In this document: positions 1-16,000 of the stretch, one piece after another | Numbering within the stretch: position 1 is the first letter of the stretch | How the letters are laid out: each line of letters begins with the position of its first letter | Origin: Hormiphora californensis | Lineage: Eukaryota > Animalia > Ctenophora | Length of the DNA: 64,000 nt | Direction: 5' to 3' | Assembly (NCBI GenBank): GCA_020137815.1 | Contig: CM035354.1 | Location: 310,001-374,000, forward strand | Notes under the pieces: model-generated | Told to the model about the DNA's origin: nothing | Seen by the model: only the letters and a program-made list of their open reading frames with translations | Database searches by the model: none | Made by a program: the position numbers and the translations under genes

Positions 1-2089
1 GGTTGTCGTCCTCAGTAATCCACTTCCTCATCCGGGTAGTCCTCGGCCTCCACTCACATAGGGTCGCAGCAGCACCGCAGCATAACAGTAGTATCTCAGT
101 AGCATCAGGGTACTCCTCCAGTACTATCATAGCTCGGTAATCGTATCAATCCCCAAGTATACACGGTCCGGGCATCGATCCTCAATCATCCAGTTAAGAA
201 GTATAATAGTAGAGCAGGGACATCTCAGGAGCTGTAGTAGAGATCCTCTCTGTAACTGGTCCAAGTGGGAACTGCCCTCAATGGAAAATTCAGCTTCCTT
301 AAGTATTCCTTTTCGTCGGAATACTCGGCGGGTATTGGATTACTCGGCGGGTCCCAGCGGGAAACTCGGCGGGCCAAACATGAGGCCGTTAGTATGGTAT
401 CGGGTTACATTCATTTCACGATTACGACATACGTCGAAATACTCGGCGGGTCTCATCGGGGAACTCGGCGGGCCAAACATGAGGCCGTTAGTATGGTATC
501 GGGTTACATTCATTTCACGATTACGACATACGTCGAAATACTCGGCGGGTCTCATCGGGGAACTCGGCGGGCCAAACATGAGGCTGTTAGTATCAGGTTA
601 CATTCATGATTCATCCCACAACAATGCAGTGCTGGCAAGCACTACGGTGTAAATATTATATATGCACACGGTTCCCCGTGTACACTCCCGCACCAAAAAT
701 CAAGAGCGGAGCGATGAAAATAATTTATTAGTCCGGCTCCCTTAGCTCCCAAATTTGTGTTCCTCCCTTTTTTCTCTCGTCCGATGGGTTGTCCGTAAAA
801 GCTTGGAATATCTTCACACGACCCTTCGTGTACACTCCCGCACCAAAAATCAAGAGCGGAGCGATGAAAGTTAAATTATTAGTCCGGCTCCCTTAGCTCC
901 CAAATGTGTGTTCCTCCCTTTTTTCTCTCGTCCGATGGGTTGTCCGTAAAAGCTTGGAATATCTTCACACGACCCTTCGTGTACACTCCCGCACCAAAAA
1001 TCAAGAGCGGAGCGATGAAAGTTAAATTATTAGTCCGGCTCCCTTAGCTCCCAAATGTGTGTTCCTCCCTTTTTTCTCTCGTCCGATGGGTTGTCCGTAA
1101 AAGCTTGGAATATCTTCACACGACCCTTCGTGTACATAATAATGCACTAACCAGGGTAACAAAGTAAACACGCGATATGACTATTGGCAAGAAATGGAAT
1201 AAGTAATACATCACAATGATGGGCTAAAACACTCACAGTTGTCGTTCCTCTTACGGTTGTCGTCCTCAGTAATCCACTTCCTCATCCGGGTAGTCCTCGG
1301 CCTCCACTCACATAGGGTCGCAGCAGCACCGCAGCATAACAGTAGTATCTCAGTAGCATCAGGGTACTCCTCCAGTACTATCATAGCTCGGTAATCGTAT
1401 CAATCCCCAAGTATACACGGTCCGGGCATCGATCCTCAATCATCCAGTTAAGAAGTATAATAGTAGAGCAGGGACATCTCAGGAGCTGTAGTAGAGATCC
1501 TCTCTGTAACTGGTCCAAGTGGGAACTGCCCTCAATGGAAAATTCAGCTTCCTTAAGTATTCCTTTTCGTCGGAATACTCGGCGGGTATTGGATTACTCG
1601 GCGGGTCCCAGCGGGAAACTCGGCGGGCCAAACATGAGGCCGTTAGTATAGGTATCGGGTTACATTCATTTCACGATTACGACATACGTCGAAATACTCG
1701 GCGGGTCTCATCGGGGAACTCGGCGGGCCAAACATGAGGCCGTTAGTATGGTATCGGGTTACATTCATTTCACGATTACGACATACGTCGAAATACTCGG
1801 CGGGTCTCCTCGGGGAACTCGGCGGGCCAAACATGAGGCTGTTAGTATCAGGTTACATTCATGATTCATCCCACAACAATGCAGTGCTGGCAAGCACTAC
1901 GGTGTAAATATTATATATGCACACGGTTCCCCGTGTACACTCCCGCACCAAAAATCAAGAGCGGAGCGATGAAAATAATTTATTAGTCCGGCTCCCTTAG
2001 CTCCCAAATTTGTGTTCCTCCCTTTTTTCTCTCGTCCGATGGGTTGTCCGTAAAAGCTTGGAATATCTTCACACGACCCTTCGTGTACA
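1..2089. repeat. Compound tandem repeat: ~1254-bp unit (1-1254, partial second copy 1255-2089) containing 99-bp and 150/151-bp sub-repeats
   Basis: ggttgtcgtcctcagtaatcc recurs at 1 and 1255. The sub-unit ctcggcgggccaaacatgagg recurs at 365/464/563. The tgtacactcccgc...cccttcgtgtaca sub-unit is present 3x in the first unit and 1x in the second. Confidence 0.95.
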
Positions 2090-2391
2090 GTGATAAAGAT
2101 ACTGATGGGATACATTGTGTTTGATTGTCTTTTTCTCTGTGACAAGCAATTGAGGTGTGTGAGTGGTGAGATCTTTCTTTGAAGTCAAAACTCCTTCTAC
2201 ATTGTTTCCGTTAGATTTCATCTATTGTCTTGTGCACATCTTGCACCTTTTTGCAACTAGGTGCGAAATGTGCCCCATTTAGATCAATTGATAACTAGCT
2301 GTAGTAGTCAGCAACCAGTTACCAGCATTGTCATTCTGCAATCTGCCATTATCCTTTGTTTTACCAGCTAGTTCTAACTTTTAAAAGACTC

Positions 2392-4457
2392 ATGAACCTC
2401 CGAGGATGGATGGCTCTAATTGGGCCTTTTGTTACAAACTTTAGCGCCACTTCCGCATCTTTTATCATGTCACCCTTCTACGCAATACACCTTACAGAGG
2501 AAGGTACGATGCAGGAACCGACCGAAATAAGTAAACAACCAATCAGATCTCGTTATTTAGGTCACGTGACTGGTTATCAGCCAATCAGGGACCAGTATTT
2601 CCTGATTCGGTCGGTTCCTGGTACGATGTATTATATTGGGACTTGCCTTGCTCTCATTTTTGGTCATCTTAATCCCTCTCCGTAAAGGAGGGTTAGAACT
2701 AAGAGCATAACAAATTGGGACTCTCTCTCTAACTAAATAGACTGGTGCCTCCTTTTGATTAACTTACCCTTTTGCCACTTTAACAAAGTTTAAATGGATA
2801 CACCAGGTTACGTAAATTTCTATAATTTCACACTCATCACCCGGCCATTCTCCCTCTTATCTCCCTCTTATCTCCCTCTTATCTCCCTCTTATCTCCCTC
2901 TTATCTCCCTCTTATCTCCCTCTCGATCTCCCTCTTCGATCTCCCTCTTATCTCCCTCTTATCTCCCTCTTATCTCCCTCTTATCTCCCTCTTATCTCCC
3001 TCATATCTCCCTCTTATCTCCCTCTTATCTCCTGCAGGTGTTCCTAGAGTTCTGATAGGTATATTTGGGCTAATGCCCGCTATAGGGTTCTTTAGCAACA
3101 TACCAGTGGATATTGTTAACACTGCTCTAACCAGAAAACTACTGACCCCAAAACAAATTACAGTCATCGCTATATTCTTGGAGTGCCTTATCACTGCTCG
3201 TAAGTAATTTCGTTATTTATTTATATGACTCGACAAGTTTTTATGTTCTTATACCCTCCTTTAAATTTGAACGCGTTGTGTGGTGAGATAGGGTCGAACA
3301 AAGCAATATCCCCGAGTAGAGACCGATTACAATTATGTAAAACATTGTGTGTTTGTGTCACTCAATATAACTGTTCAACTATATTTTCAGTGACAGGAAC
3401 GGCTCACTACTTGTTCCCCTTACTGGGCAAGTATCAGACCATGGGGTTTCTTATGATACTACGGTGGCTCCACGGCTGGGTCTGCTTCCTCGTCTGTAAC
3501 TCTTCCTACTTCTGCTACCAAACGTGGATCCCAGACATCATCAAAGTAGCATCTGCATTTGGGAACTCAGGGTGCTGGGCGGGATGTGCAGTGGGTGCCT
3601 GGGTAGGTGGACAGCTGTTCTACCGGTTTGGTTGGGCGTATACATTTTTCTGTTGGGCGGGTGTTCAGTTTACACTCAATATTGTCGGATGTTGTATCTT
3701 GCCTGGTGGGGATGATCCTGTGTGGAGGCCTAAAAACTCTGACACCGTTGCCATGGTAACAACATGTGACGAGCCAGATAAAGATGGTCTGACTCCGCTG
3801 GCCATGCTCGCCTACCTAGCGATGGGCCTCATGGAGGTTGTATCAGGGTGTATCACGGCCATCCTCAGTACCTACCTCCTTGACAAGTTTGAAATTACCA
3901 TCGCCAACTCGTCCAACTACATCTTTATATATCTCATTGCTATAATGCTGGGATCCCAACTAGCCGGGATCATTCTACAAAGTGGGCTGCTGAGGAGTGC
4001 GGAGGTGCTTGCTTTTGGTGGCTTCCTGGTTGGATTCTCCATCTTCCTTCTCTTCCCACAACCGGCCGATGGGTACCTGTACACTCAGATCCCCTACACC
4101 GCATACCTAGCAACCGTTATCCTGGGTACAGGGGTTGTCATGGCGTCCATGGCAACGCTATTTCTAGTTGAGGACCTCCAGGTGAAGTTGTGCCATCGGA
4201 CCTTTAACTCGACCAACAAGTCTCTAAATGTGACCCTCTGGTTGAATTTTATGATGGCATTTTGTTACTCGGGTAACTTGGTAGCATTGCTGTTTCTTCA
4301 GTACCTATCATTTGAACAATGTGGCGTTATTTTGGGCTCCCTATCTACCGTTACCATAGCAACGGGGATTTCTTTAGAGGCACTACTTAGGTGGAAGGGT
4401 GCCTATACAAACAATAATTACACCCCAATTACAGATAAAAGCTCATCTATGTCCTGA
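2392..4457 (+). CDS. Major facilitator superfamily transporter (possibly SLC18B1-like), 3 exons, ~446 aa
   Basis: Exons 2392-2503, 3038-3199 and 3391-4457 are joined by phase-1 GT-AG introns in one frame. The protein has many hydrophobic helices and MFS-like motifs LRWLHG and GCAVGAWVGGQLFYRFGWAYTF. Subfamily assignment is tentative. Confidence 0.8.
2512..2620 (+). mobile_element. 109-bp hAT-like MITE (CAGGAACCGACCGAA termini), 8-bp TSD gtacgatg
   Basis: TIRs caggaaccgaccgaa / ttcggtcggttcctg; gtacgatg at 2504-2511 and 2621-2628. Further copies at 5116, 15761 and 25537 (partial). Confidence 0.9.
2850..3031. repeat. 12-bp tandem repeat (ctcttatctccc)n in MFS intron 1
   Basis: Directly visible array ending at the cctgcag acceptor. 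Confidence 0.9.
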
Positions 4458-4690: not shown

Positions 4691-6061
4691 CCAGTAAAAA
4701 CCAGAGTGTCCACTCAGGTAAGAACTTGATAAAAACCAGGGCCATAAAGGCAGATGTGATGACCAGGTAGGCTTGTTGTAGGATGAGTGGTCCCTTCCAG
4801 AATATACTGATGATCCCCATTACTCCAAAGTTCCATACAATGTATCCACATGTAATGTAGTCCATAGCAACGTTGAATCTTACTATCACCTACACAGACA
4901 GAGGGATATAAGGAAAATAATGGTTATGAAAACCCAATCAAGCAGCGATTATTAACATATTAGGACTTGAATTGTGTATGCAGTAGTCAGTTGACACGTC
5001 CAAGTGATCACTGCCCCAGTTCCCCCCAGTGTTACATTGCAGATACACTTCATACCTACCCTCCGACTCATAATAGCATTTAAGGACTTTCCCATATATA
5101 TCTCTAACTAACAAACATGAACCGACCGATTCAGGAAATACTGGTCTCTGATTGGCTGATAACCAATCACGTGACCTAAATAACGAGATCTGATTGGTTG
5201 TTTACTTGTTTCGGTCGGTTCCTGCTAACAAACCTCTTGCAGGTAGATGAAGCTAAACATGAAGAGAAGAATGAGGGAGGAGAGAAAGAGCCACCCGTAT
5301 ATAATCTTGTAACAGCGGTATTTGTACAGGAGCACTAAGAAACATGTCATGACAACCACCAGGGACACTACAATCAACATGTTTAACACGGCGTCACTGA
5401 CTGGGGAACCTGGAGAGGTGAGGAGCTAGTTTTATATACACAAACCAGACGTGGAGCTATCCCATCCCTCACTGTGTGGGAGAGGTGAGGGGCTAGTATA
5501 GAGATTACAAAGTTAAAAGGAAGAAAGCTCCCGTTGGTGACGAAAGGGGTCATAAGGTGTGTAGCTATACCATCCCTCACTGAAGTCTGCCTGTACTTCA
5601 CGGACCACGGTTAGCGTCCTATCTGAATAACTAACCAGTGGGGGTCTAGAGATAGAGGGAGGGACTCCTAGATCAGAAGTTAAAATAACCAGTGGGGGTC
5701 TAGAGATAGAGAGGGCTGAGGGAGAGCCTCCTACCTAGGTCAGAAGTTAAACTAAGTTAAACTAACCAGTTGAGATATCCTTATTGTTTTCATTGAAGGG
5801 TGTGTAAACCAGGTAGACCTGTTGTTGCGGGCCCTGATCGTACATCGTGACCGTCCTGATAATCGCAATCACCAACATCATACACACTGATACAGGTACA
5901 ATCAACATCATCACATGTTTAGCACCGTACTTTAGTGTCTCGACATCATCTTCCTCTTCGTATTCTGCTTCAATCCTCTCACGGGTTTCAGGGGGTTGTG
6001 GTTGGTTTTCTCGGGCAAGCCGGGCATCAAGGTTGTTTGGGGTAACAACCTCCGCACTCAT
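4691..6061 (-). CDS. PSEN: Presenilin (gamma-secretase subunit) homolog, N-terminal half only (TM1 to start of TM6)
   Basis: Exons 6061-5767, 5409-5234 and 4889-4691 have GT-AG boundaries and a continuous frame: [19 protein letters not shown]...VYTPF...LLYKYRCYK...FSFIYLQEV...[17 protein letters not shown]...QQAYL...[16 protein letters not shown], closely matching presenilin. The exons carrying the catalytic YD and GxGD motifs were not found in the window. Confidence 0.92.
5116..5224 (-). mobile_element. Second copy of the 109-bp hAT-like MITE, TSD ctaacaaa, in presenilin intron 2
   Basis: Same internal sequence in reverse orientation; ctaacaaa at 5108-5115 and 5225-5232. Confidence 0.88.
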
Positions 6062-6426
6062 AGCTAGTTGGGAAATGTTTGTGTGACTGGGAAATGTGTC
6101 AACTGGTTGACCTTTTCAGTGCTAAAGGTGGTACCAGTCAGACGAAACAAGGTGTACAGTTTGGCACTCTGGGAACTTTTCATTGACAAGTTATCAATAT
6201 CAGAATCAGACATGCTTTAGTGTTTACGAGCCTAGAGATTCAGTTTGAATGATAAACCGAACGACTTCAGCACAATTGGATTGTAAAAATTCCATGCCCT
6301 TCGTACGCTTTCGGCTTTTTTGGAAACCGATGAACATAATTCGTACGTTGTCTGAAAAACCAAACTCTGATCCATCCCACTATACCAACCATTCATGCTG
6401 CATAGCCAGTTTTACACGTGTATCGG

Positions 6427-6452
6427 CACTACTTTAAACAAATTAATTTGAG
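6427..6452 (+). other. Spliced-leader-like sequence CACTACTTTAAACAAATTAATTTGAG at the LINE 5' end
   Basis: Matches the 3' part of the cydippid ctenophore SL exon as I recall it (...CAACACTACTTTAAACAAATTAATTTGAG). It lies 57 nt upstream of the ORF1 ATG. Recollection only; needs database confirmation. Confidence 0.72.
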
Positions 6453-6509
6453 GTCTATGACCTCGAATTAGCCAATGTGTTTTAGTATGGCATACTAAGA
6501 GCACGGAAC

Positions 6510-8081
6510 ATGGCCACACTACCCCCACCCAGTCCGAAGTCCCCCATCCCATTCTCCAATATCGCAAGTGAGGGGGTACTGATAAACAATAACGACATCG
6601 ACCTTAAGCTCATCCAAGGATTGTCGGAACTGTCCCTAGCCCAGCTAGACAGACTGGTTGAACACCTCAACGTCGAATTATCCAGAAGAGTACCAGACTG
6701 CACCACAGCTGAGGATCCTAACCGGTATGTGGAGGTAGTCGAGGATTATGTGGGCGAAGATGACCTCAACTTGCTACATGGTGAGGTCATGGATTTGACA
6801 GAGAAAAACACTTGGGTAACGTCCACAGGAATGCCCTATAGTTGGTTCAGTAAACGGGGACAACAGCTCGCTGAACATAAGTTGACCCCAGTCGCCCTTG
6901 AGGAATTCCCCGTTGTAGAGCGGATCATGAACACTATGAACACTATGCAAGGATGGAGACTAAATTCGTGTCTGGTCACAAGATACGACACGGGTGTCGG
7001 TGTGGGTTATCACAACGATTTTGAGGTGACGATGGATAAGTCCTCCCCGATTGTTGTGTTAACTGTCGGAGCGCCGGGTAAAGTGGATTTCTTACCCTAC
7101 AAAGCAGATGGAAGGACCACGCCAGCTCTCACCCTGGAACTGATTGCTGGTTCCGCCTACGTCATGCACCCAGGATGTCAGGAGGTCCTGAAGCACCGGG
7201 CGGTCAAGAACGAGTCTACTGAGAAGCGGTATGCTCTGTCCTTCAGAAGAGCAACCCCACAGCTCCCCTCAACAGATCTGGTACCACCACCACCACCACC
7301 ACCACCTAGCCCACGGAGACTGCCCTCCCCACCATCGAGGGCAACAATAGGAGTCCAGCATTCCCCTCCTCCTCCTAATGGGGATGGTTACCAACCGGAT
7401 CCTCCTCCTCCTCCTCCCCCAGTGGCGAACGTGCCGGTACCCTCCGTTAGACCACCCCTACTTCCTACCCCTTCTGGAGTGGTCCCTTCTTTGAGACATG
7501 CCGTCAACCCTAGGAGCCCCACTACTCTGCTCTTGGGCACGAGCCTGTCCAAATGGGTACCTGAGATCCGGGGGCTTGAGAATATCTCTGTGTCGGGTGC
7601 AAGGATTGTGAAGCCCCATTCGAAATGGAAGGGTACTACAGCGTTTGAAGAGCTGTCCAGGTACCACCAGAGCCACCCTGAGGCACACTTTGAGAAGGTT
7701 GTTATCTGCTATGGTACGAACGATATTAGGTTTGATAAGAACTTCTGTGAGAACAGCGCAACGAAGAACCGACTCCAAGGGGCACTATGCCACCTAGTGA
7801 GGCAGATTAGACGGTTGTATGGGGACCCGGAGATAGTGATTACACATGTCCTTCCCCTGAGAGGAGACTTCTCATATACGGTCTCTAATGTTACCATGTA
7901 CAACAAAATTGTAAATTGTGTGTCCCAACTCATGAATTGCAGTTTTGTGAGTTGGATGGCTGATTTCCTAACGCGTGATTTGTTTTTCAACTCATCACTT
8001 TATTGTAGGGATGGTGTGCATTTGAATAAATATGGTTACTCGGTCTTAACTGACCTGATTTATAACGAAGTTTTACGCTGA
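6510..8081 (+). CDS. LINE ORF1p: leucine-rich helix + AlkB-like 2OG-Fe(II) dioxygenase + Pro-rich linker + SGNH/GDSL esterase
   Basis: AlkB-type motifs: LNSCLVTRY, H168-N-D170, GSAYVM, H229, R240-YALSF-R246. SGNH blocks: LLGTS345, SGA, GTN404D, D501-GV-H504. Confidence 0.88.
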   Translation: MATLPPPSPKSPIPFSNIASEGVLINNNDIDLKLIQGLSELSLAQLDRLVEHLNVELSRRVPDCTTAEDPNRYVEVVEDYVGEDDLNLLHGEVMDLTEKNTWVTSTGMPYSWFSKRGQQLAEHKLTPVALEEFPVVERIMNTMNTMQGWRLNSCLVTRYDTGVGVGYHNDFEVTMDKSSPIVVLTVGAPGKVDFLPYKADGRTTPALTLELIAGSAYVMHPGCQEVLKHRAVKNESTEKRYALSFRRATPQLPSTDLVPPPPPPPPSPRRLPSPPSRATIGVQHSPPPPNGDGYQPDPPPPPPPVANVPVPSVRPPLLPTPSGVVPSLRHAVNPRSPTTLLLGTSLSKWVPEIRGLENISVSGARIVKPHSKWKGTTAFEELSRYHQSHPEAHFEKVVICYGTNDIRFDKNFCENSATKNRLQGALCHLVRQIRRLYGDPEIVITHVLPLRGDFSYTVSNVTMYNKIVNCVSQLMNCSFVSWMADFLTRDLFFNSSLYCRDGVHLNKYGYSVLTDLIYNEVLR

Positions 8082-8199
8082 TTGCTGATTTTGCTGCATT
8101 GATAATATATATGTTTGGGGGGAGAAGTTGTTTTATTACCCCAACCAACAGACCCTCCGTGAACCCTTAGTGCCGAAACCAAAATCCAAAACCCCCACA

Positions 8200-11100
8200 A
8201 TGATAAGTGCTGAACAGTACAGACAAACTATTGGGAGGTTTGCAGGGGGGAGGGGTGGAAAAAGAAAAATGTTTACTAACAAAACCCTTGACCGACAGTA
8301 CAGACAAACATCATCAATATCACCATTTCATTTGATTCTCTACCTAAGTTACAGTATACTAATACTTATTCTTTTAGGCTCGATGTCCAGATGTACTTCC
8401 TCTCTGTCCTGTAGAGAACTATGTATGGAAACAGGCCGAGAAGAAGTCGGTAAGAGTATCAACCAGCATTACATTTGGTATGCTAATTGTGTGTTAACCC
8501 TGGTGATATTCAAAAGTATGGGGAAAATAGGGAACACCTGTTCCAAAATCATAGTTAGGTGTCGACTAGTCGTACTATTAATCTTTCTTTCGAGTCTAGC
8601 AAAAGCACTTATTGTTATCCACCAGCCCAGTATTGTAAATCCTGGGCCTACTGAACCAAAAACAAAAATTAGTGTGGTGTACTGCAACGTTAATGGTCTC
8701 ATAAATATGCAATCAATTAGTGGTGATCAGCCCCAGTTTCAAGTATCTAAACTCTCTGATCTCCGAGCATACTTGTTTACTTATGAGCCAGAAATTGTAG
8801 TATTAAATGAAACGTGGTTGAACAAGCATGTCAATGATGGGGAATTAGTGTCCGATCAGTTCTATACAATATACAGAAAAGATAGAACTAAAAGGGACAT
8901 GGAAATGTATGATAAAAAGGGTGGGGGAGGAGTTATGATTCTATGTAAGAATAACATGGGTATTGAAGTTGATCAGGTAAAGGACAAGGTAAATCTGCCT
9001 ATTGTCACCATACTGCTCAAGTCAAAAAACCTGACCCCGATATGTATCTCAACATTCTACAGGTATGACTACTCGGGGTCAGATTGTCTTGAAGAAACTG
9101 AGCGGTACTACACACGCCTATCTAGAAAATATAAAAACCTAGCAATCATCGGGGATCTCAATCTAAGTTCGGTTAAAGATTGGGATGACCCAGTATCGAG
9201 CAATAGTATACACGAAGGCTTTGCTCACCTTTTTACATCTCTGGGTATGAGTTCGTTAATAAACACACCAACACACAGGGATGGAAATGTATTAGATCTA
9301 ATTCTCACAAATAATAGTTCGTGTTTTTCCAATGTATCGGTAGAAGAAAATTGTTTAGTCAAATCTGACCACTTCACTATTAAATGTGAGGTGCAAATCA
9401 AAAAGATAAGACCCAAGTTTAAGACGGCTAAAAAGTTTTCTTACAAGAAAGCTGATTGGGATGCGATTAATGAGGGACTGATTCGGTATGACTGGACTAA
9501 GGAATTCAAACACCTCAGGGCCGAGCAATCTCTTCAGAAATTTAAATCAAAATTAGATATTACCCTAAGACACCATGTACCATTAGTTAATGTAAAAATA
9601 GGATCTCAACCACCCTGGTACGATGATGAGTTGAGACAGTTAAAAAGGTCAATGGATAATTCTAGAAAAGCTTCTCTGAAGTTTCCAAATGATGTTTCCC
9701 TAAAAAATGTATTTACTTGTATGGAGGCAGAGTACAGAAAAGCGTCAAGGGAGAAAGAAACACACTTTCTAGAACTCTCCTCCATTGATGAGTCTGCCTC
9801 TACAGCTGCAATTTCCAAAAAGTTTTTTAAACATGTGAAATCAAAAACTAGCAGCACTAGAGTCCCTGATATAGTTCATTACGAGAATAACTCTGAAAAA
9901 AGTAGTCAACAAAAATGCAAAATGTTTAATGATTTTTTTTGTAAACAGTTCACACAAGCCAGTACGTATAGCACACCAATTGATTTTGATAGAAACCACG
10001 ATAATGATTTTAACAACGAAACTTTTCACTTTGATGAAGTTGTAGATATATTAAGAAAATTAGATGCATCCAAGGCCACTGGCCCAGATAATATAGACGG
10101 TATAGTTTTGAAAAAATGTCACAAATCATTGGCATATCCACTAGTATTAATTTTTAACAAAGTTTTTGATGAAGGGTCTATTCCAACTGAGTGGAAAAAT
10201 GCAAATGTTGTGCCAGTCCACAAAAAAGGAGATAAGTCTAATGTAGAGAATTATAGACCGATTTCTCTTACGTGTCTAATTATGAAGGTCTTCGAAAAGT
10301 TGGTTAGAGAGCGCCTGTATAGGGCTTGTCTGGAGAAAGTTACACCTCATCAGCATGGGTTCGTACCACTGAAGTCATGTACGACCCAACTGATCGAGTT
10401 TAACTGTGAGCTAGCAATAAATTTAAACCAACACTTGCAAACAGATATTATATATTTTGATTTTCAAAAGGCTTTTGACAGCGTATCACACGATGTCATA
10501 CTTGAAAAACTTAAAGTCCAGTATAACATAAACGGTAAAATGTTGCAATTTCTTAAAGCGTACTTATCTGGACGTCGACAGAGAGTAGCATTAGATGGTG
10601 AATTCTCGGAATGGTCTAATGTTAAGAGTGGAGTCCCTCAAGGATCCATCCTCGGTCCATTCCTTTTTGTTCTATTTATAAATGATATAGTTGAGGCCAT
10701 TGGGGATGAAGGAGAAACCAATATAAAGCTATATGCAGATGATCTAAAAATCTGGAGGACGATTAAGAATGAAAATGATAGTCTCCAGCCTGATATTGAT
10801 AGATTGATTGAGTGGAGTGTGAAAAATAAAATGAAGTTCCACCCTAATAAATGTAAACTTCTTAGATGTACCTTGAAGCATAAGCCTGTTAACCTAAAAT
10901 ATTACTTAGGAAGTAGTGAGATTCAACAATGTACAAATGAAACTGACCTGGGGGTGATCACCAATAGAAAATTATCGCCTCTAGAACACCAAAACATGAT
11001 AATTTCTAAAACGTCTCAGAGGTTAGGCCTAGTCAAGAGAACTAGTGCTCTGGTTGATTCCCCCCTAAAGAGGAGAACACTTTATGTCAGTCTTGTTAGT

Positions 11101-11592
11101 TCGTTGTTTGAACACTGCAGCCAGATATGGCGACCAGTTTCAGCCTATAGTATTGAAAAGTTCGAAAAGCTCCAAAAACGTGCATTAAAATGGATAAATA
11201 ATGAAATGGAGCTCAGCTATGATTGGAAAACGTATGTCAGTAAACTTAAACAAAGAAAGATTCTTCCTATTACCGAAAGGTTCCTTTATAATGACTTAAA
11301 ACTGTTTCATAAGATATTCTACGGATCTTCATCCCTAAAACTTCCAATGTTCCTTCACAAATACATCCCTGACAGACACGACAGGCGTACAACTAGACAA
11401 CAGACAAACCGGGACCAAACAGACATCATTTGCACACATAACCCTAATATTGACGCTTTTAAACATAGTTATTTTTACCGTATCCATGTGGAATGGAATA
11501 ACCTTCCGCATGACCTACGATGCCTAGATTCTCATGATGCCTTTGTAGCCAAGCTCAAAGATTATCTCTGGAATAACATTCCAAATTCGTAA
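8200..11592 (+). CDS. LINE ORF2p: hydrophobic leader + APE endonuclease + reverse transcriptase
   Basis: First ATG at 8200 (frame open from 8128). APE motifs YCNVNGL, LNETWL, GDLN, LDLIL, SDH. RT motifs NYRPISL, QHGF, DFQKAFDSV, GVPQGSILGP, YADD (10732), DLGV. Confidence 0.95.
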   Translation: MISAEQYRQTIGRFAGGRGGKRKMFTNKTLDRQYRQTSSISPFHLILYLSYSILILILLGSMSRCTSSLSCRELCMETGREEVGKSINQHYIWYANCVLTLVIFKSMGKIGNTCSKIIVRCRLVVLLIFLSSLAKALIVIHQPSIVNPGPTEPKTKISVVYCNVNGLINMQSISGDQPQFQVSKLSDLRAYLFTYEPEIVVLNETWLNKHVNDGELVSDQFYTIYRKDRTKRDMEMYDKKGGGGVMILCKNNMGIEVDQVKDKVNLPIVTILLKSKNLTPICISTFYRYDYSGSDCLEETERYYTRLSRKYKNLAIIGDLNLSSVKDWDDPVSSNSIHEGFAHLFTSLGMSSLINTPTHRDGNVLDLILTNNSSCFSNVSVEENCLVKSDHFTIKCEVQIKKIRPKFKTAKKFSYKKADWDAINEGLIRYDWTKEFKHLRAEQSLQKFKSKLDITLRHHVPLVNVKIGSQPPWYDDELRQLKRSMDNSRKASLKFPNDVSLKNVFTCMEAEYRKASREKETHFLELSSIDESASTAAISKKFFKHVKSKTSSTRVPDIVHYENNSEKSSQQKCKMFNDFFCKQFTQASTYSTPIDFDRNHDNDFNNETFHFDEVVDILRKLDASKATGPDNIDGIVLKKCHKSLAYPLVLIFNKVFDEGSIPTEWKNANVVPVHKKGDKSNVENYRPISLTCLIMKVFEKLVRERLYRACLEKVTPHQHGFVPLKSCTTQLIEFNCELAINLNQHLQTDIIYFDFQKAFDSVSHDVILEKLKVQYNINGKMLQFLKAYLSGRRQRVALDGEFSEWSNVKSGVPQGSILGPFLFVLFINDIVEAIGDEGETNIKLYADDLKIWRTIKNENDSLQPDIDRLIEWSVKNKMKFHPNKCKLLRCTLKHKPVNLKYYLGSSEIQQCTNETDLGVITNRKLSPLEHQNMIISKTSQRLGLVKRTSALVDSPLKRRTLYVSLVSSLFEHCSQIWRPVSAYSIEKFEKLQKRALKWINNEMELSYDWKTYVSKLKQRKILPITERFLYNDLKLFHKIFYGSSSLKLPMFLHKYIPDRHDRRTTRQQTNRDQTDIICTHNPNIDAFKHSYFYRIHVEWNNLPHDLRCLDSHDAFVAKLKDYLWNNIPNS

Positions 11593-11937
11593 ATTCGCGG
11601 CTGTGCTATTGACTTCACCTACTTTCTAAACTTTAGATCAATCTCTCCTATCTCATGGACTTCAAATTATTTATTTCTTTGGTGTGGTGTTGAAGAGTTG
11701 AAACTATACAACAAGCAATCGCACAGTCGCGAATCTAATCACATAATTGATTACAAGACATTTACAAACAAGAATTTTGGGGGGTTGGCTAGGGAGGGGG
11801 AAATAATCAATATATTATCTATAGTAGCCATATTAGATTTTGTTTATTCTATTAAAAATATACTGTATTAGTCTGTTTGTCCGTAGTGTGTGAGAACTGT
11901 CTGTGTGTGAATTTTTAGAGTATTTTGAGGTGTAAGC

Positions 11938-12042
11938 GCTCCGTCGATATTGACACTCCGTCAATAGGAGCCAACCGGGATATTGTCTTTATAAATATAT
12001 CGATTTTTATCCTTTTCCAAATCAAATCAAATCAAACCAAAT
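11938..12042 (+). other. LINE 3' recognition stem-loop and pentamer tail
   Basis: Hairpin gctcc-gtcga-tattgac-actcc-gtcaata-ggagc followed by (CAAAT)n; this architecture is typical of CR1/L2 3' ends. Confidence 0.75.
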
Positions 12043-13516
12043 GGTAAAGTTGTAGACGAAAATGCGAAAAAGTGAAATTTCTACGCAACTGCCACCACTT
12101 CATTTTCATTTTTATTTCAGCACTGTATATCAGTGCGCGTATCACTAGTCGCGCGAAGAACTCTACATTTATGTCACCGCGCGTGTCGTTGAGCATTCTG
12201 CTACGCGGCAGGGGAGCATGCAGAGCTGCAAGAAGGGGGTCGGAGGGCCGGGTCGGCAAGTTGCAAAGAAAAAAGGAAACAATACATCCTTTACCACCTT
12301 ATGCAACAGCAACCATTTTTCATGCAACATTCACAATTCTTGTGAGCGAAGACGAATCCGATGTTAACAGGCATGTAATGAATTCGGTTTTTTTTTTCTG
12401 AATGAATTCGGTCGAATATCATCTGAATGAATTCTGTCGAATATCATCTATCGACCATCACCCATCTATCGACTATCCTCTTATAGTCTGTCATATAAGA
12501 AAGGACTGCAGCGGGTCACAAAACAATGGGTGGTGGTGAGTGGCGGAGCGTTGCAAAACTCGACTTTTGTAATTCATACAGAGAGAGAGAGATAGAGAGT
12601 CTGATTGTCTGCCCATTAACAACTCACAGTCCAATTGAAAACAGTCCATTTGAACAGGTTCATTTTCTTTCTCTCTCCCTCACTCTCTTTCTTTCTCTAC
12701 TCACTCACTCTCTCACAGACTCTCTGTATCTCTCACTCACACATACTACTCACTCTCCAGTCTCCATTCCCTACAAATGCACATCTCGTACTCTCATATA
12801 TTGTTTTGCCACAACCCAACTCTCTTCCGACTACCAAACTATCTCCCTATGAGCGTTTTGCACTGCTATCTAAACAGCTACATATTATTTGGCATCATGT
12901 TTGTCACCGTGTGAAATCATCTTTAGGTGACTGGAAGAGATGTCCTCTCCCCGTGTGAAATCATCTTTAGGTGACTCGGAGATTGTGTGTGCCTTGGTGA
13001 CTCGGAGATATTTCAGAATGGAATTTTGGGTGAAACTGCTAATCTAGTATTCGTGCACTATAAGTGAGTGTGTCTAGATTGCTTGCCAAATTTCTGCACC
13101 CACCCTGTATTATTATAATAGTGGCCCTCCCACTCATCAGATATATAATATAGTAGTATCTCGTGTGCATGAGAGATGGAATGAGAGAGAGTGAGAACAT
13201 CGTCCGTCCCCTAGTAGTTCAGTATCGGCTAAGCTCAAAGGTAGCTAATCGATCCTTATAAAATATGCTCCTCTCTGCTGGGGCCGAAACCCCTTTCAAA
13301 CAGGGGGGACCTGGTGCTGTTGCGGGGGGTAAAAAGAGCGGAGTATACGTTCAGTAAGTGGCTATAATATATTTTCACATTGAGAGACAGAAAGGGATCG
13401 GTAGAAAATCGGAAGGAGCTTAGAAAGAGAAAAATAGCTGAGTGGGGAACAGAAAGGACGGAAAGATCTATCGTTTCTCATTTCCCCTGGCGGCTATCCA
13501 GCTTGAGAGAGGGAGG

Positions 13517-13752: not shown

Positions 13753-16000
13753 TCATCGGCCCTCCTCTCCCTCTCCCCTTCGTCTCATCGTCCTCCGCTT
13801 CCAAGTATATACAATTAAGAACCTCAGATCCATGATTTGTGCCAACTCTACATTCCACTCGTCCACCACTGTACGCTTTCTGGACGCACCTTCTCCCGCG
13901 TTCCAATTAACAACAATTAAAGGGAGCCTGTAATTCATGGAGATCTCCTCCACCCACCTAGCTGTAGAATGTATGTAAATGTATTTGCTCTCGTCGATCT
14001 CTTCTCCTCCCTCTTTTGGCACATGTAACAACACCAGTGAGTGATCGAGCTGGCTTTACAAGAAGGTTGAGCTGGGATCGGCTGTCTCTAGATCATCTCT
14101 AGCCTGCGCTCATATACTATATATATCTCGCGCTAGTGATTGTTTGTGTTGTTGGTTAAGCTGACTAGGAAATACAGAGGGGCCTGTCCAATAGGATAAG
14201 GGGGAGGAGGTAACAAGGAGCCAATCAGATGGTCCCCCTTGAATACCTGTGTGTAGACTGACTGACTCGCCCCCCCCCCCCTCCTGACAGCTCCTTTATA
14301 TGCCTCTACCAGAGTCAGCCACTCCCACCCAACTTCCGTAGTCCCGGATCAATGGAATGTGGTGATGGTGGGAACCTAGTTTGTATCCAAACATGGGTAT
14401 CGTAATCACGTGAAAAGAGCACCATATTTGGGCATCATATCACGTGAAAAGACCACCATATTTGGGCATCATATCACGTGTCAAGACCACCATATTTGGG
14501 CATCATATCACGTGTCAAGACCACCATATTTGGGCATCATAATTCACATCACGTGAAAAGACCACCATATTTGGGCATCATATCACGTGTCAAGACCACC
14601 ATATTTGGGCATCATATCACGTGTCAAGACCACCATATTTGGGCATCATATCGCGTGTCAAGACCACCATATTTGGGCATCATAATTCACATCACGTGAA
14701 AAGACCACCATATTTGGGCATCATATCACGTGTCAAGACCACCATATTTGGGCATCATATCACGTGAAAAGAGCACCATATTTGGGCATCATATCACGTG
14801 ACAAGAGCACCATATCACGTGACAAGAGCACCATATTTGGGCATCATATCACGTGAAAAGAGCACCATATTTGGGCATCATATCACGTGATAAGAGCACC
14901 ATATTTGGGCATCATATCACGTGCTGCTGGTTAGTAACCAACAGCGGTCCATCTGTAAATATTTCGTAACCTTGTTAAAGGAGCGAGAGGGAGAAACAGC
15001 AGAGCTCAATATAGATCTCAAGAGCTATACCACCCACCCTCTCTCTCTTGGTGCTGGCATCCTCTTGCAGTAGGTACCACCCCTTTCTCTCTCCCTCCAC
15101 CTTCTCTCTCTCCCTCTCTCCCTCCCTTCGCATTCTCTCACTCCCCCAAGTCAAATTATCTGCGGAGAGCTGTCTACCAAAATGAGAGAGAAAACTACCT
15201 GTCCCACCGGCCTCGTCCCTCCGAGAAGTGGAGCTTTTCAACGGCCAGCTCGTACCAGCTGTTTTTTGGAAACCCTCATATTATTCCATGGTTAGAGGCG
15301 GCTGACCGAATTTGAAATGTAACATATTATATATCGAATCTGCTATATCAAGGTCCCTGTATGTTCCATTTACCGGAATAAGCTGTAAATGATGTTTGGA
15401 ACCCGTTTATCAGACACAGCCCTAAGTAGAAAGAATGCTCCCTATAAATCGCTCAGCCCTAAGTAGAAAGAATGAGCTCCTTTATATTCCGGGAGATGAC
15501 GTGTAAAAAGACAAATTTGAAAAACGTTGATTTTGTTCCCCTGTTTATATTTTCGAAACTAGCCACATCTCCAGGATGAGATGAACTCAAAAAAGTAAAA
15601 ACTCGGATATATTTTTCTAAACAGTGAAGGTACAAAACACACATTGAAAATAAATACATCAACAAATTATTCTTTAGTCATAACGGAGGAGAAAAGAAGT
15701 TGTCCTGCTCAATAGGATTCATGTCTCTCTATCTGGGAGCAAAGAGGGGTTGCTATGTTCCAGGAACCGACCGAAACAAGTAAAAAACCAATCAGAACTC
15801 GTTATTTAGGTCACGTGACTGGTTATTAGCCAATCAGGGACCAGTATTCCCTGGTTCGGTCGGTTCCTGGTTGCTATGTTCTAACCCTCGAGGAGAGAGA
15901 GAGGGTCGAACAAGGCAAATAATCAGGGGTAGGGTGAGTTACTGACCTCCCACCGCTTTCTCGTTCTCTCAATCATACACACACACACAAGCAGTGTTAT
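13753..16000 (-). CDS. Possible multi-exon gene of unknown function in a noisy region
   Basis: Several short AG/GT-bounded segments read as plausible peptides, e.g. WYELAVEKLHFSEGRGRWD (~15200-15260), SHHHHIPLIRDYGSWVGVADS (~14330-14395), IQGGPSDWLLVTSSPLSYWTG (~14185-14245) and ORF 13753-14034. No family recognised. Confidence 0.3.
14405..14922. repeat. 34/35-bp minisatellite (cacgtgtcaagaccaccatatttgggcatcatat)n, ~15 copies
   Basis: Directly visible; period 34 (cacgtg at 14441 and 14475). Confidence 0.95.
15761..15869 (+). mobile_element. Third copy of the 109-bp MITE, flanked by a 12-bp duplication gttgctatgttc
   Basis: TIRs as at 2512; duplication at 15749-15760 and 15870-15881. Confidence 0.88.

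What the first reader, a model, noticed from the sequence alone, without database searches (positions are those of the whole stretch)
6427..6509. The LINE begins with a spliced leader: a trans-spliced, possibly promoter-less retrotransposon
Seen: CACTACTTTAAACAAATTAATTTGAG lies 57 nt before the ORF1 ATG, leaving almost no 5' UTR for an internal promoter. Recalled, not verified here: this is the 3' 26 nt of the cydippid ctenophore SL exon. The 5' part of the leader is missing, as expected if RT stopped just short of the cap. Inference: the element RNA was SL trans-spliced and then reverse-transcribed nearly to its end. The integrated leader ends in ...TTAATTTGAG and could itself act as the next trans-splice acceptor. 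Any read-through host transcript would then be trimmed to a capped, unit-length LINE mRNA, allowing propagation without a promoter. This differs from NeSL/CRE/SLACS elements, which insert into SL RNA genes.
Basis: partly seen in the sequence, partly recalled or inferred. Interest (0 to 1): 0.85.

Follow-up and report, generated by a model that had tools for sequence, protein, structure and literature searches.

The report
Comb-jelly LINEs headed by spliced leader
A young, intact jumping gene (LINE) in a comb jelly starts with the last 26 letters of the leader that these animals splice onto their mRNAs, as do two unrelated LINE families, so these elements were likely copied from leader-spliced RNA; whether they need no promoter of their own is untested.

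Summary
Observation confirmed. 6427-6452 equals the 3' 26 nt of the published Hormiphora spliced leader and heads a 5.6-kb two-ORF LINE. An empty-site allele puts the 5' edge at or within 3 nt of the leader stump; there is no target duplication. This is not an SL RNA gene: that gene (L011, in tandem with 5S rRNA) has a different intron. In two runs the multi-copy ORF1 contig starts inside the leader, and two other LINE families (L007, L010) carry 43 and 35 leader bases. Copying from trans-spliced RNA is likely (0.8). The promoter-less cycle is unproven (0.3): the retained leader ends in GAG, a poor acceptor (recalled), it is predicted to be buried in a 13-pair hairpin with an anti-leader stretch of the 5' UTR, and a source copy with its own outron is not excluded. 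Partial leaders at flatworm LINEs are already in print as a passing suggestion, and this scan noted the same in dinoflagellates, Perkinsus and Euglena. My ten paper searches found no ctenophore case. ORF1 also carries an AlkB-type domain.

The parts
6427..6452 (+). 3' 26 nt of the host spliced leader; 5' end of the element
   Evidence: Exact match to the published leader and to the SL RNA gene exon in L011
6424..6426 (.). 5' junction: 3 nt that are either untemplated or target bases with one substitution; the target lost 8-11 bp
   Evidence: Empty allele joins 6423 to 12033 with 11 other letters in runs X1 and X4
6453..6509 (+). 57-nt 5' UTR after the leader; begins with GT but is unlike the SL RNA intron
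   Evidence: Only 2 nt shared with the L011 intron; best local alignment score 8
6459..6471 (+). Anti-leader stretch; predicted 13-pair hairpin with 6443-6455 across the leader junction
   Evidence: 11 Watson-Crick + 2 G-U pairs; 15 of 20000 shuffles reach it; best of 14 control loci 7 WC pairs
6510..8081 (+). ORF1, 523 aa: AlkB-type 2OG-Fe(II) oxygenase (aa 94-242), proline-rich linker, GDSL/SGNH esterase (aa 358-511)
   Evidence: Pfam E 4.7e-14 and 2.8e-10; 15 of 20 homologs carry both domains
8200..11592 (+). ORF2, 1130 aa: AP-type endonuclease (aa 163-391) and reverse transcriptase (aa 674-893)
   Evidence: Pfam E 1.4e-11 and 5.2e-30; open frame
11593..12017 (+). 3' UTR
   Evidence: Between the ORF2 stop and the tail
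12018..12032 (+). (CAAAT)3 tail; the target continues with two similar units (12033-12042), giving 3' microhomology
   Evidence: Tandem array 12018-12042; empty allele resumes at 12033
5765..6061 (-). First coding exon of a presenilin gene; the LINE sits about 365 bp upstream, back to back (context, not part of the element)
   Evidence: Pfam Presenilin E 1.5e-11; sequence

Best explanation
This is a young, intact two-ORF LINE whose genomic 5' end is the last 26 bases of the host spliced leader, likely because its RNA was SL trans-spliced 57 nt before ORF1 and then reverse-transcribed into the genome, with copying likely ending inside the leader. Shown: leader identity, both insertion edges, loss of 8-11 target bases, 3' microhomology, absence of the SL RNA intron, leader bases at the start of the multi-copy contig in two runs, and leader stumps of 43 and 35 nt on two other LINE families. 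Inferred: (1) the leader is added by the spliceosome; (2) target-primed reverse transcription starts at the (CAAAT)n tail; (3) it is a habit of several ctenophore LINE families, with the leader taken fresh from the host SL RNA in recent rounds; (4) each such copy has lost whatever lay upstream of the splice site. For the source of the RNA I lean to a minority of copies that keep a native upstream leader region (outron) and promoter (about 0.4), over re-splicing at the retained leader (about 0.3) or an internal or leader-borne promoter (about 0.2).
For: The junction falls exactly at the leader's donor site with no SL RNA intron (L011). Empty allele in 2 of 4 runs laid. The ORF1-side contig starts at 6435 in X1 (depth 207.6 against 36.4 on the flank contig) and at 6441 in X4 (298.8 against 68.8; next ORF1 contig 280.9), so the dominant assembly path runs into the leader (depth is only a rough guide). 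X4's flank differs from the window at 4 places at full depth, so its leader-headed contig likely comes from other loci. Of 14 loci with leader+GT in the metagenome collection, 11 have the leader at the contig edge before a non-RT ORF, 1 is the SL RNA array and 2 are LINEs; both LINEs and none of the 11 have foreign bases before the leader (Fisher p 0.013). L007's ORF2 is only 25% identical to the window's and its ORF1 is of another type, yet all three stumps match the SL RNA gene exactly (26, 35, 43 nt). About 30% of Hydra TE long reads carry a leader (passage).
Against: No RNA of this element was seen, so trans-splicing itself is not observed. No second full junction (flank + stump + UTR) of this same family was read: 185 loose ends and 2157 pieces were hidden. 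L007 has only 5 foreign bases before the contig ends. L007 and L010 are single assembled contigs from one data set, of unknown species, and the search demanded GT after the leader. A template jump onto SL-bearing RNA would leave the same DNA.
Confidence: 0.8

Rival explanations
1. Self-renewing, promoter-less cycle (a refinement of the best explanation; the first reader's model): host read-through RNA is re-spliced at the AG that ends the integrated leader, giving a capped unit-length LINE RNA each round.
For: The dominant path at the 5' end is leader, not an outron. Stumps in three divergent families match the current SL RNA gene exactly. This copy lies about 365 bp from a host gene start, where stray transcription is plausible (inference).
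Against: The site is GAG; both presenilin intron acceptors are YAG (2 of 2), flatworm SL acceptors are UUNYAG (passage), and GAG is the rarest acceptor in general (recalled). The AG is predicted paired with probability 1.0 in a read-through RNA. A single outron-bearing source would not break the contig: a side branch at 9586 did not.
Confidence: 0.3
2. The leader stump or the 57-nt UTR holds an internal promoter, so copies are transcribed from within the stump and the leader is inherited with the element instead of being re-spliced.
For: A retroposed leader acting as promoter is proposed for dinoflagellate retrogenes (passage). Trypanosome LINEs have a 77-bp internal promoter (abstract start). 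Some insect LINE promoters fit in under 50 nt (recalled).
Against: An inherited stump should shorten and drift; the three stumps show no mismatch to the SL RNA gene. No promoter test was possible.
Confidence: 0.15
3. Template jump: reverse transcriptase runs off the LINE RNA's 5' end and continues on the SL RNA or a leader-bearing mRNA, held in place by the anti-leader stretch.
For: 6459-6472 can form a 12-pair duplex (-14.1 kcal/mol) across the SL RNA donor site; the element and the SL intron share GT at the joint.
Against: L007 and L010 have exact donor-site joints without any anti-leader (5 and 3 WC pairs). GT after a leader is common in ordinary mRNAs (11 loci).
Confidence: 0.08
4. The LINE inserted into an SL RNA gene or a pre-existing leader copy, as NeSL, CRE and SLACS do.
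For: The published genome holds 718 leader copies (passage).
Against: The empty allele has no leader; upstream and downstream flanks are unlike the SL RNA gene; the endonuclease is AP-type, whereas CRE and NeSL use a restriction-like one (passage).
Confidence: 0.02
5. Assembly artefact or cDNA contamination.
For: No listed contig bridges flank to leader.
Against: Leader-to-UTR contigs in DNA-type runs of two samples; clean target deletion and 3' microhomology; the same arrangement in two other families from an independent collection.
Confidence: 0.03

Closest known systems
Partial leaders at LINE and LTR loci in parasitic flatworms (Calvelo et al. 2025, PMC12582326; section 6 read)
   Same: 597 discarded loci had only partial leader sequence beside mobile elements; the authors suggest integration of trans-spliced retrotransposon RNA.
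   Different: A passing suggestion with no junctions, empty sites or families shown in the text I read; here an intact autonomous copy with both edges and three families.
Dinoflagellate and Perkinsus retrogenes with relict leaders (PMC6050394, passages; Slamovits and Keeling 2008 cited there)
   Same: Trans-spliced RNA copied back into the genome, leader left as a tag.
   Different: Those are cellular genes mobilised in trans and often show tandem relics; here the tagged sequence is the autonomous element, with one stump.
Trans-spliced TE transcripts in Hydra (PMC12220107, passage), Heterodera (PMC6362198, passage) and C. elegans Cer1 (PMC3315495, passages)
   Same: TE RNAs use the host trans-splicing machinery.
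   Different: RNA-level only; in Cer1 the full-length RNA skips the SL site, whereas here the leader is in the integrated full-length DNA.
SL-gene-targeting retrotransposons NeSL, CRE, SLACS (PMC4640811, passages)
   Same: Leader sequence next to a non-LTR element.
   Different: They insert into SL RNA genes; CRE and NeSL use a restriction-like endonuclease. Here the target has no leader and the endonuclease is AP-type.
CR1-group LINEs with esterase ORF1 (group features recalled)
   Same: Two ORFs, esterase in ORF1, APE-RT, short-repeat tail, no target duplication.
   Different: Leader-derived 5' end; an added AlkB-type domain in ORF1, which two paper searches did not find described.

Membership tests
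Ctenophore spliced leader | Identity to the published leader | tested here: met
   26 of 26 nt equal the 3' end of the 44-nt leader
Ctenophore spliced leader | Found at the 5' ends of many unrelated mRNAs | tested here: met
   11 of 14 loci, 8 of them with host Pfam families; 5 listed pieces with differing continuations in run X22, whose RNA status is a guess
SL RNA gene | Leader followed by donor and the SL intron, in a repeat unit | tested here: not met
   L011 shows the real gene (778-bp unit with 5S rRNA); the window shares 2 nt of its intron
Retrocopy of a trans-spliced RNA | Leader joined exactly at its donor site, no intron | tested here: met
   Window, L007, L010
Retrocopy of a trans-spliced RNA | Leader arrives with the insertion (absent from the empty site) | tested here: met
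   Empty allele in X1 and X4
Retrocopy of a trans-spliced RNA | Variable leader truncation with unrelated flanks among copies | tested here: inconclusive
   26, 35 and 43 nt across three families; second full junctions within this family were not read
Retrocopy of a trans-spliced RNA | Element RNA with the full leader | tested here: inconclusive
   One RNA-like contig set laid, no element cover; contigs show presence only
NeSL/CRE/SLACS SL-gene-specific elements | Insertion into an SL RNA gene | tested here: not met
   Empty site and flanks lack SL gene sequence
NeSL/CRE/SLACS SL-gene-specific elements | Restriction-like endonuclease | tested here: not met
   N-terminal AP-type endonuclease
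CR1-group LINE | ORF1 esterase; ORF2 APE + RT | tested here: met
   (link of esterase to the CR1 group is recalled)
CR1-group LINE | Short tandem-repeat tail, no target-site duplication | tested here: met
CR1-group LINE | RT tree placement with reference clades | not tested
   No reference RT set was on hand; clade names for the window (CR1-like) and L007 (L2-like) rest on recalled motifs
Promoter-less, re-splicing element (hypothetical) | Integrated leader works as a trans-splice acceptor | not testable with these tools
   Indirect signs are against: GAG, predicted pairing
Promoter-less, re-splicing element (hypothetical) | No copy with native outron or promoter | not testable with these tools
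   No whole genome held

The most novel reading that the evidence does not exclude
Several ctenophore LINE clades have given up promoters: each copy is born with a leader stump, is transcribed by host read-through, and is re-capped by trans-splicing, while this family carries an anti-leader that pairs with the SL RNA across its donor site to draw the SL particle in, and an AlkB-type ORF1 domain that repairs or demethylates its RNA. Many of the hundreds of genomic leader copies in ctenophores would then be LINE heads.
Probability: 0.3. Interest if true: 0.8.

Novelty: new variant of a known kind. Interest (0 to 1): 0.55.

Why it matters
LINEs must carry their promoter through each RNA round. 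If SL trans-splicing supplies the 5' end, then either rare unspliced RNAs found every new source copy or the element lives without a promoter; both are testable with existing ctenophore long reads. The leader stump marks full-length, recently made copies. It also offers an explanation for part of the 718 and 491 genomic leader copies reported for two ctenophores, which that passage treats simply as leader loci. The anti-leader hairpin and the AlkB-type ORF1 are separate, concrete leads.

Tried and rejected
No whole genome is held, so copies could not be collected. Searches for related loci found none in viral contigs or prokaryote genomes. The RNA-like run X22 gave no cover on the element body or on presenilin; this says nothing about expression. 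A closer look at the 5' junction in reads was not obtained, so junctions of sister copies stay open. No other leader-ending fragment of 10 nt or more and no other copy of the element lie in the window. The AlkB domain had no solved relative by sequence. The sigma-70 scan does not apply to an animal. A second acceptor before ORF2 (T-rich stretch near 8370) was considered and dropped: it lies in a hydrophobic coding stretch of an open frame. Derelle et al. 2010 and a recalled rotifer retroelement paper are not held; the latter may describe leaders on retroelement RNAs and is unchecked. Supplements of PMC8527503 could not be read and may bear on the 718 leader copies. Paper searches; none listed a ctenophore leader-headed LINE, but subscription journals and Repbase are outside the library. 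PMC7986045 and PMC9311404 (passages) added nothing decisive.

Full report
Observation. The 26-mer lies at 6427-6452, 57 nt before the ATG of a 523-aa ORF (6510-8081), followed by an 1130-aa ORF (8200-11592). Pfam gives a 2OG-Fe(II) oxygenase and a GDSL esterase for ORF1, and an AP-type endonuclease and reverse transcriptase for ORF2. The 26-mer is the exact 3' end of the 44-nt leader printed for Hormiphora californensis (PMC8527503, passages). It is unique in the window, absent from 100 shuffles, and parts of it have no match in the viral or prokaryote collections. Two ORF1 homologs are Pleurobrachia bachei gene models, so the host is likely a cydippid ctenophore.

Edges of the insertion. I laid 4 of the 22 runs listed on 5700-12700. 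Runs X1 and X4 each hold a contig that joins 6423 to 12033 with 11 other letters: the empty site. X5 showed no such joint and X22 no cover there. The empty site has no leader, so the leader came with the insertion. There is no target duplication; 8-11 target bases were lost, depending on whether 6424-6426 are read as target with one substitution. The element ends in three CAAAT units and the target continues with two similar units, the microhomology expected for priming (inference). This copy differs from the X1/X4 contigs at 6 places between 8206 and 11809, so it is young. It sits about 365 bp upstream of a presenilin start codon, back to back.

Not an SL RNA gene. A scan of the metagenome collection for leader+GT gave 14 loci. 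L011 is the SL RNA gene: a 778-bp repeat with 5S rRNA. Its intron shares only GT with the window, and its upstream sequence is unlike the window's flank. Eleven loci have the leader at the contig edge before a long ORF; 8 of the 11 have host Pfam families, 3 have none, none is an RT.

A habit, not an accident. The remaining 2 loci are LINEs. L007 has 43 leader bases, a cysteine-rich ORF1 and an APE-RT ORF2 only 25% identical to the window's. L010 has 35 leader bases, 151 unrelated bases before them, an ORF1 32% identical to L007's and the start of an endonuclease. Both LINEs, and none of the 11 mRNAs, have foreign bases ahead of the leader (p 0.013). Within the window's own family, the ORF1-side contig starts inside the leader in X1 (6435; depth 207.6, flank 36.4) and X4 (6441; 298.8, flank 68.8), with no fall in depth toward the 5' end in X4 (next contig 280.9). 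Depth is no copy number, but an assembler follows the dominant path, so most full-length copies likely carry at least 12-18 leader bases. Limits: 185 loose ends and 2157 pieces were not shown; I read no second complete junction of this family; L007 and L010 come from one data set; the GT filter shows only part of all joints.

Mechanism. An exact joint at the donor site, without SL intron, in three families, with stumps of different length and no mismatch to the SL RNA gene, is what trans-splicing followed by incomplete reverse transcription predicts (0.8). Trans-splicing of this RNA was not observed. Where the RNA comes from is open. Both presenilin intron acceptors checked are YAG, flatworm SL acceptors are UUNYAG (passage), and GAG is the rarest acceptor (recalled). 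A side branch at 9586 did not break its contig, so one source copy with its own outron could be hidden. The 57-nt UTR is no argument: the 11 mRNAs have 2-93 nt. I put an outron-bearing source at about 0.4, re-splicing at 0.3, and an internal promoter at 0.15-0.2.

An unexpected hairpin. Bases 6459-6471 pair with 6443-6455 across the leader joint: 11 Watson-Crick and 2 G-U pairs around a 3-nt loop. Fifteen of 20000 UTR shuffles reach this; a looser test gave 12 of 5000 shuffles and 25 of 6000 window stretches; the best of 14 control loci has 7 Watson-Crick pairs, and L007 and L010 lack it. The test was chosen after seeing the fold. In X1 a second sequence follows the window to 6464 and then diverges (the contig start at 6435 fits an exact share); read by eye, its next six letters still pair with the leader, with the G-U at another position. 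In a read-through RNA the stem would bury the AG (predicted probability 1.0); in a precursor with another upstream end the same stretch could pair with the SL RNA across its donor (12 pairs, -14.1 kcal/mol). It may be a guide, a mask for the recreated AG/GT site, or a fold-back relic.

Comparison. Calvelo et al. 2025 discarded 597 flatworm loci with partial leaders beside LTR and LINE elements and proposed this origin in one sentence (section 6). Dinoflagellate retrogenes carry relict leaders (passages). TE RNAs are trans-spliced in Hydra and Heterodera (passages); Cer1's full-length RNA avoids it (passages); trypanosome L1Tc makes unspliced RNA from an internal promoter (listing and abstract start). 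NeSL, CRE and SLACS differ in target (passages, and recall). Earlier notes of this scan report leader-headed LINEs in dinoflagellates, Perkinsus and Euglena (unchecked, not counted as support); none for this genome or sequence. Ten paper searches listed no ctenophore case and two found no AlkB-bearing LINE ORF1, within a library that lacks most subscription papers.

Verdict. Real, well bounded, and a multi-family feature. The tagging route is a variant of known mRNA recycling, applied to autonomous LINEs. Interest 0.55; 0.8 if the cycle holds (probability 0.3).

Noticed in passing
window 6789-7235: AlkB-type oxygenase domain fused to an esterase in ORF1; metal- and 2OG-binding-like H-x-D, H and R residues (motif recalled) are kept in all 9 aligned sequences; 15 of 20 homologs have both domains. 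Not found in two paper searches.
   Followed up: partly
L011 263-1600: Ctenophore SL RNA gene alternating with 5S rRNA in a 778-bp unit; folds well (z -3.4); not in Rfam. Sm site not identified by test.
   Followed up: partly
L010 187-272: The UTR after the leader is a long T-rich tract ending in CAG at 272: a possible second, internal acceptor or an intron opened by the leader's GT.
   Followed up: no
window 8205-8235: Contigs break at the same place in X1, X4 and X5 and depth rises in X1 and X4: possibly a subfamily sharing ORF2 with a different upstream part, or an old truncated copy.
   Followed up: no
window 6424-6426 and 6451-6461: The 11 target letters lost at insertion resemble the leader/UTR joint (five identical letters at the start); chance or transient pairing during second-strand joining.
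   Followed up: no
window 3225-4457: Single-ORF MFS-like gene on the + strand, apparently nested in an intron of the minus-strand presenilin gene.
   Followed up: no
window about 8620-8650: ORF2 has an NPGP motif just before the endonuclease, like the 2A-type peptides of some LINEs (recalled); degenerate here.
   Followed up: no
window about 2510-2620, 5115-5225, 15760-15870: A short repeat of about 105 bp with inverted ends, MITE-like, seen by eye.
   Followed up: no
window 1-2100: A duplicated block of several hundred bases and nested tandem units, seen by eye.
   Followed up: no
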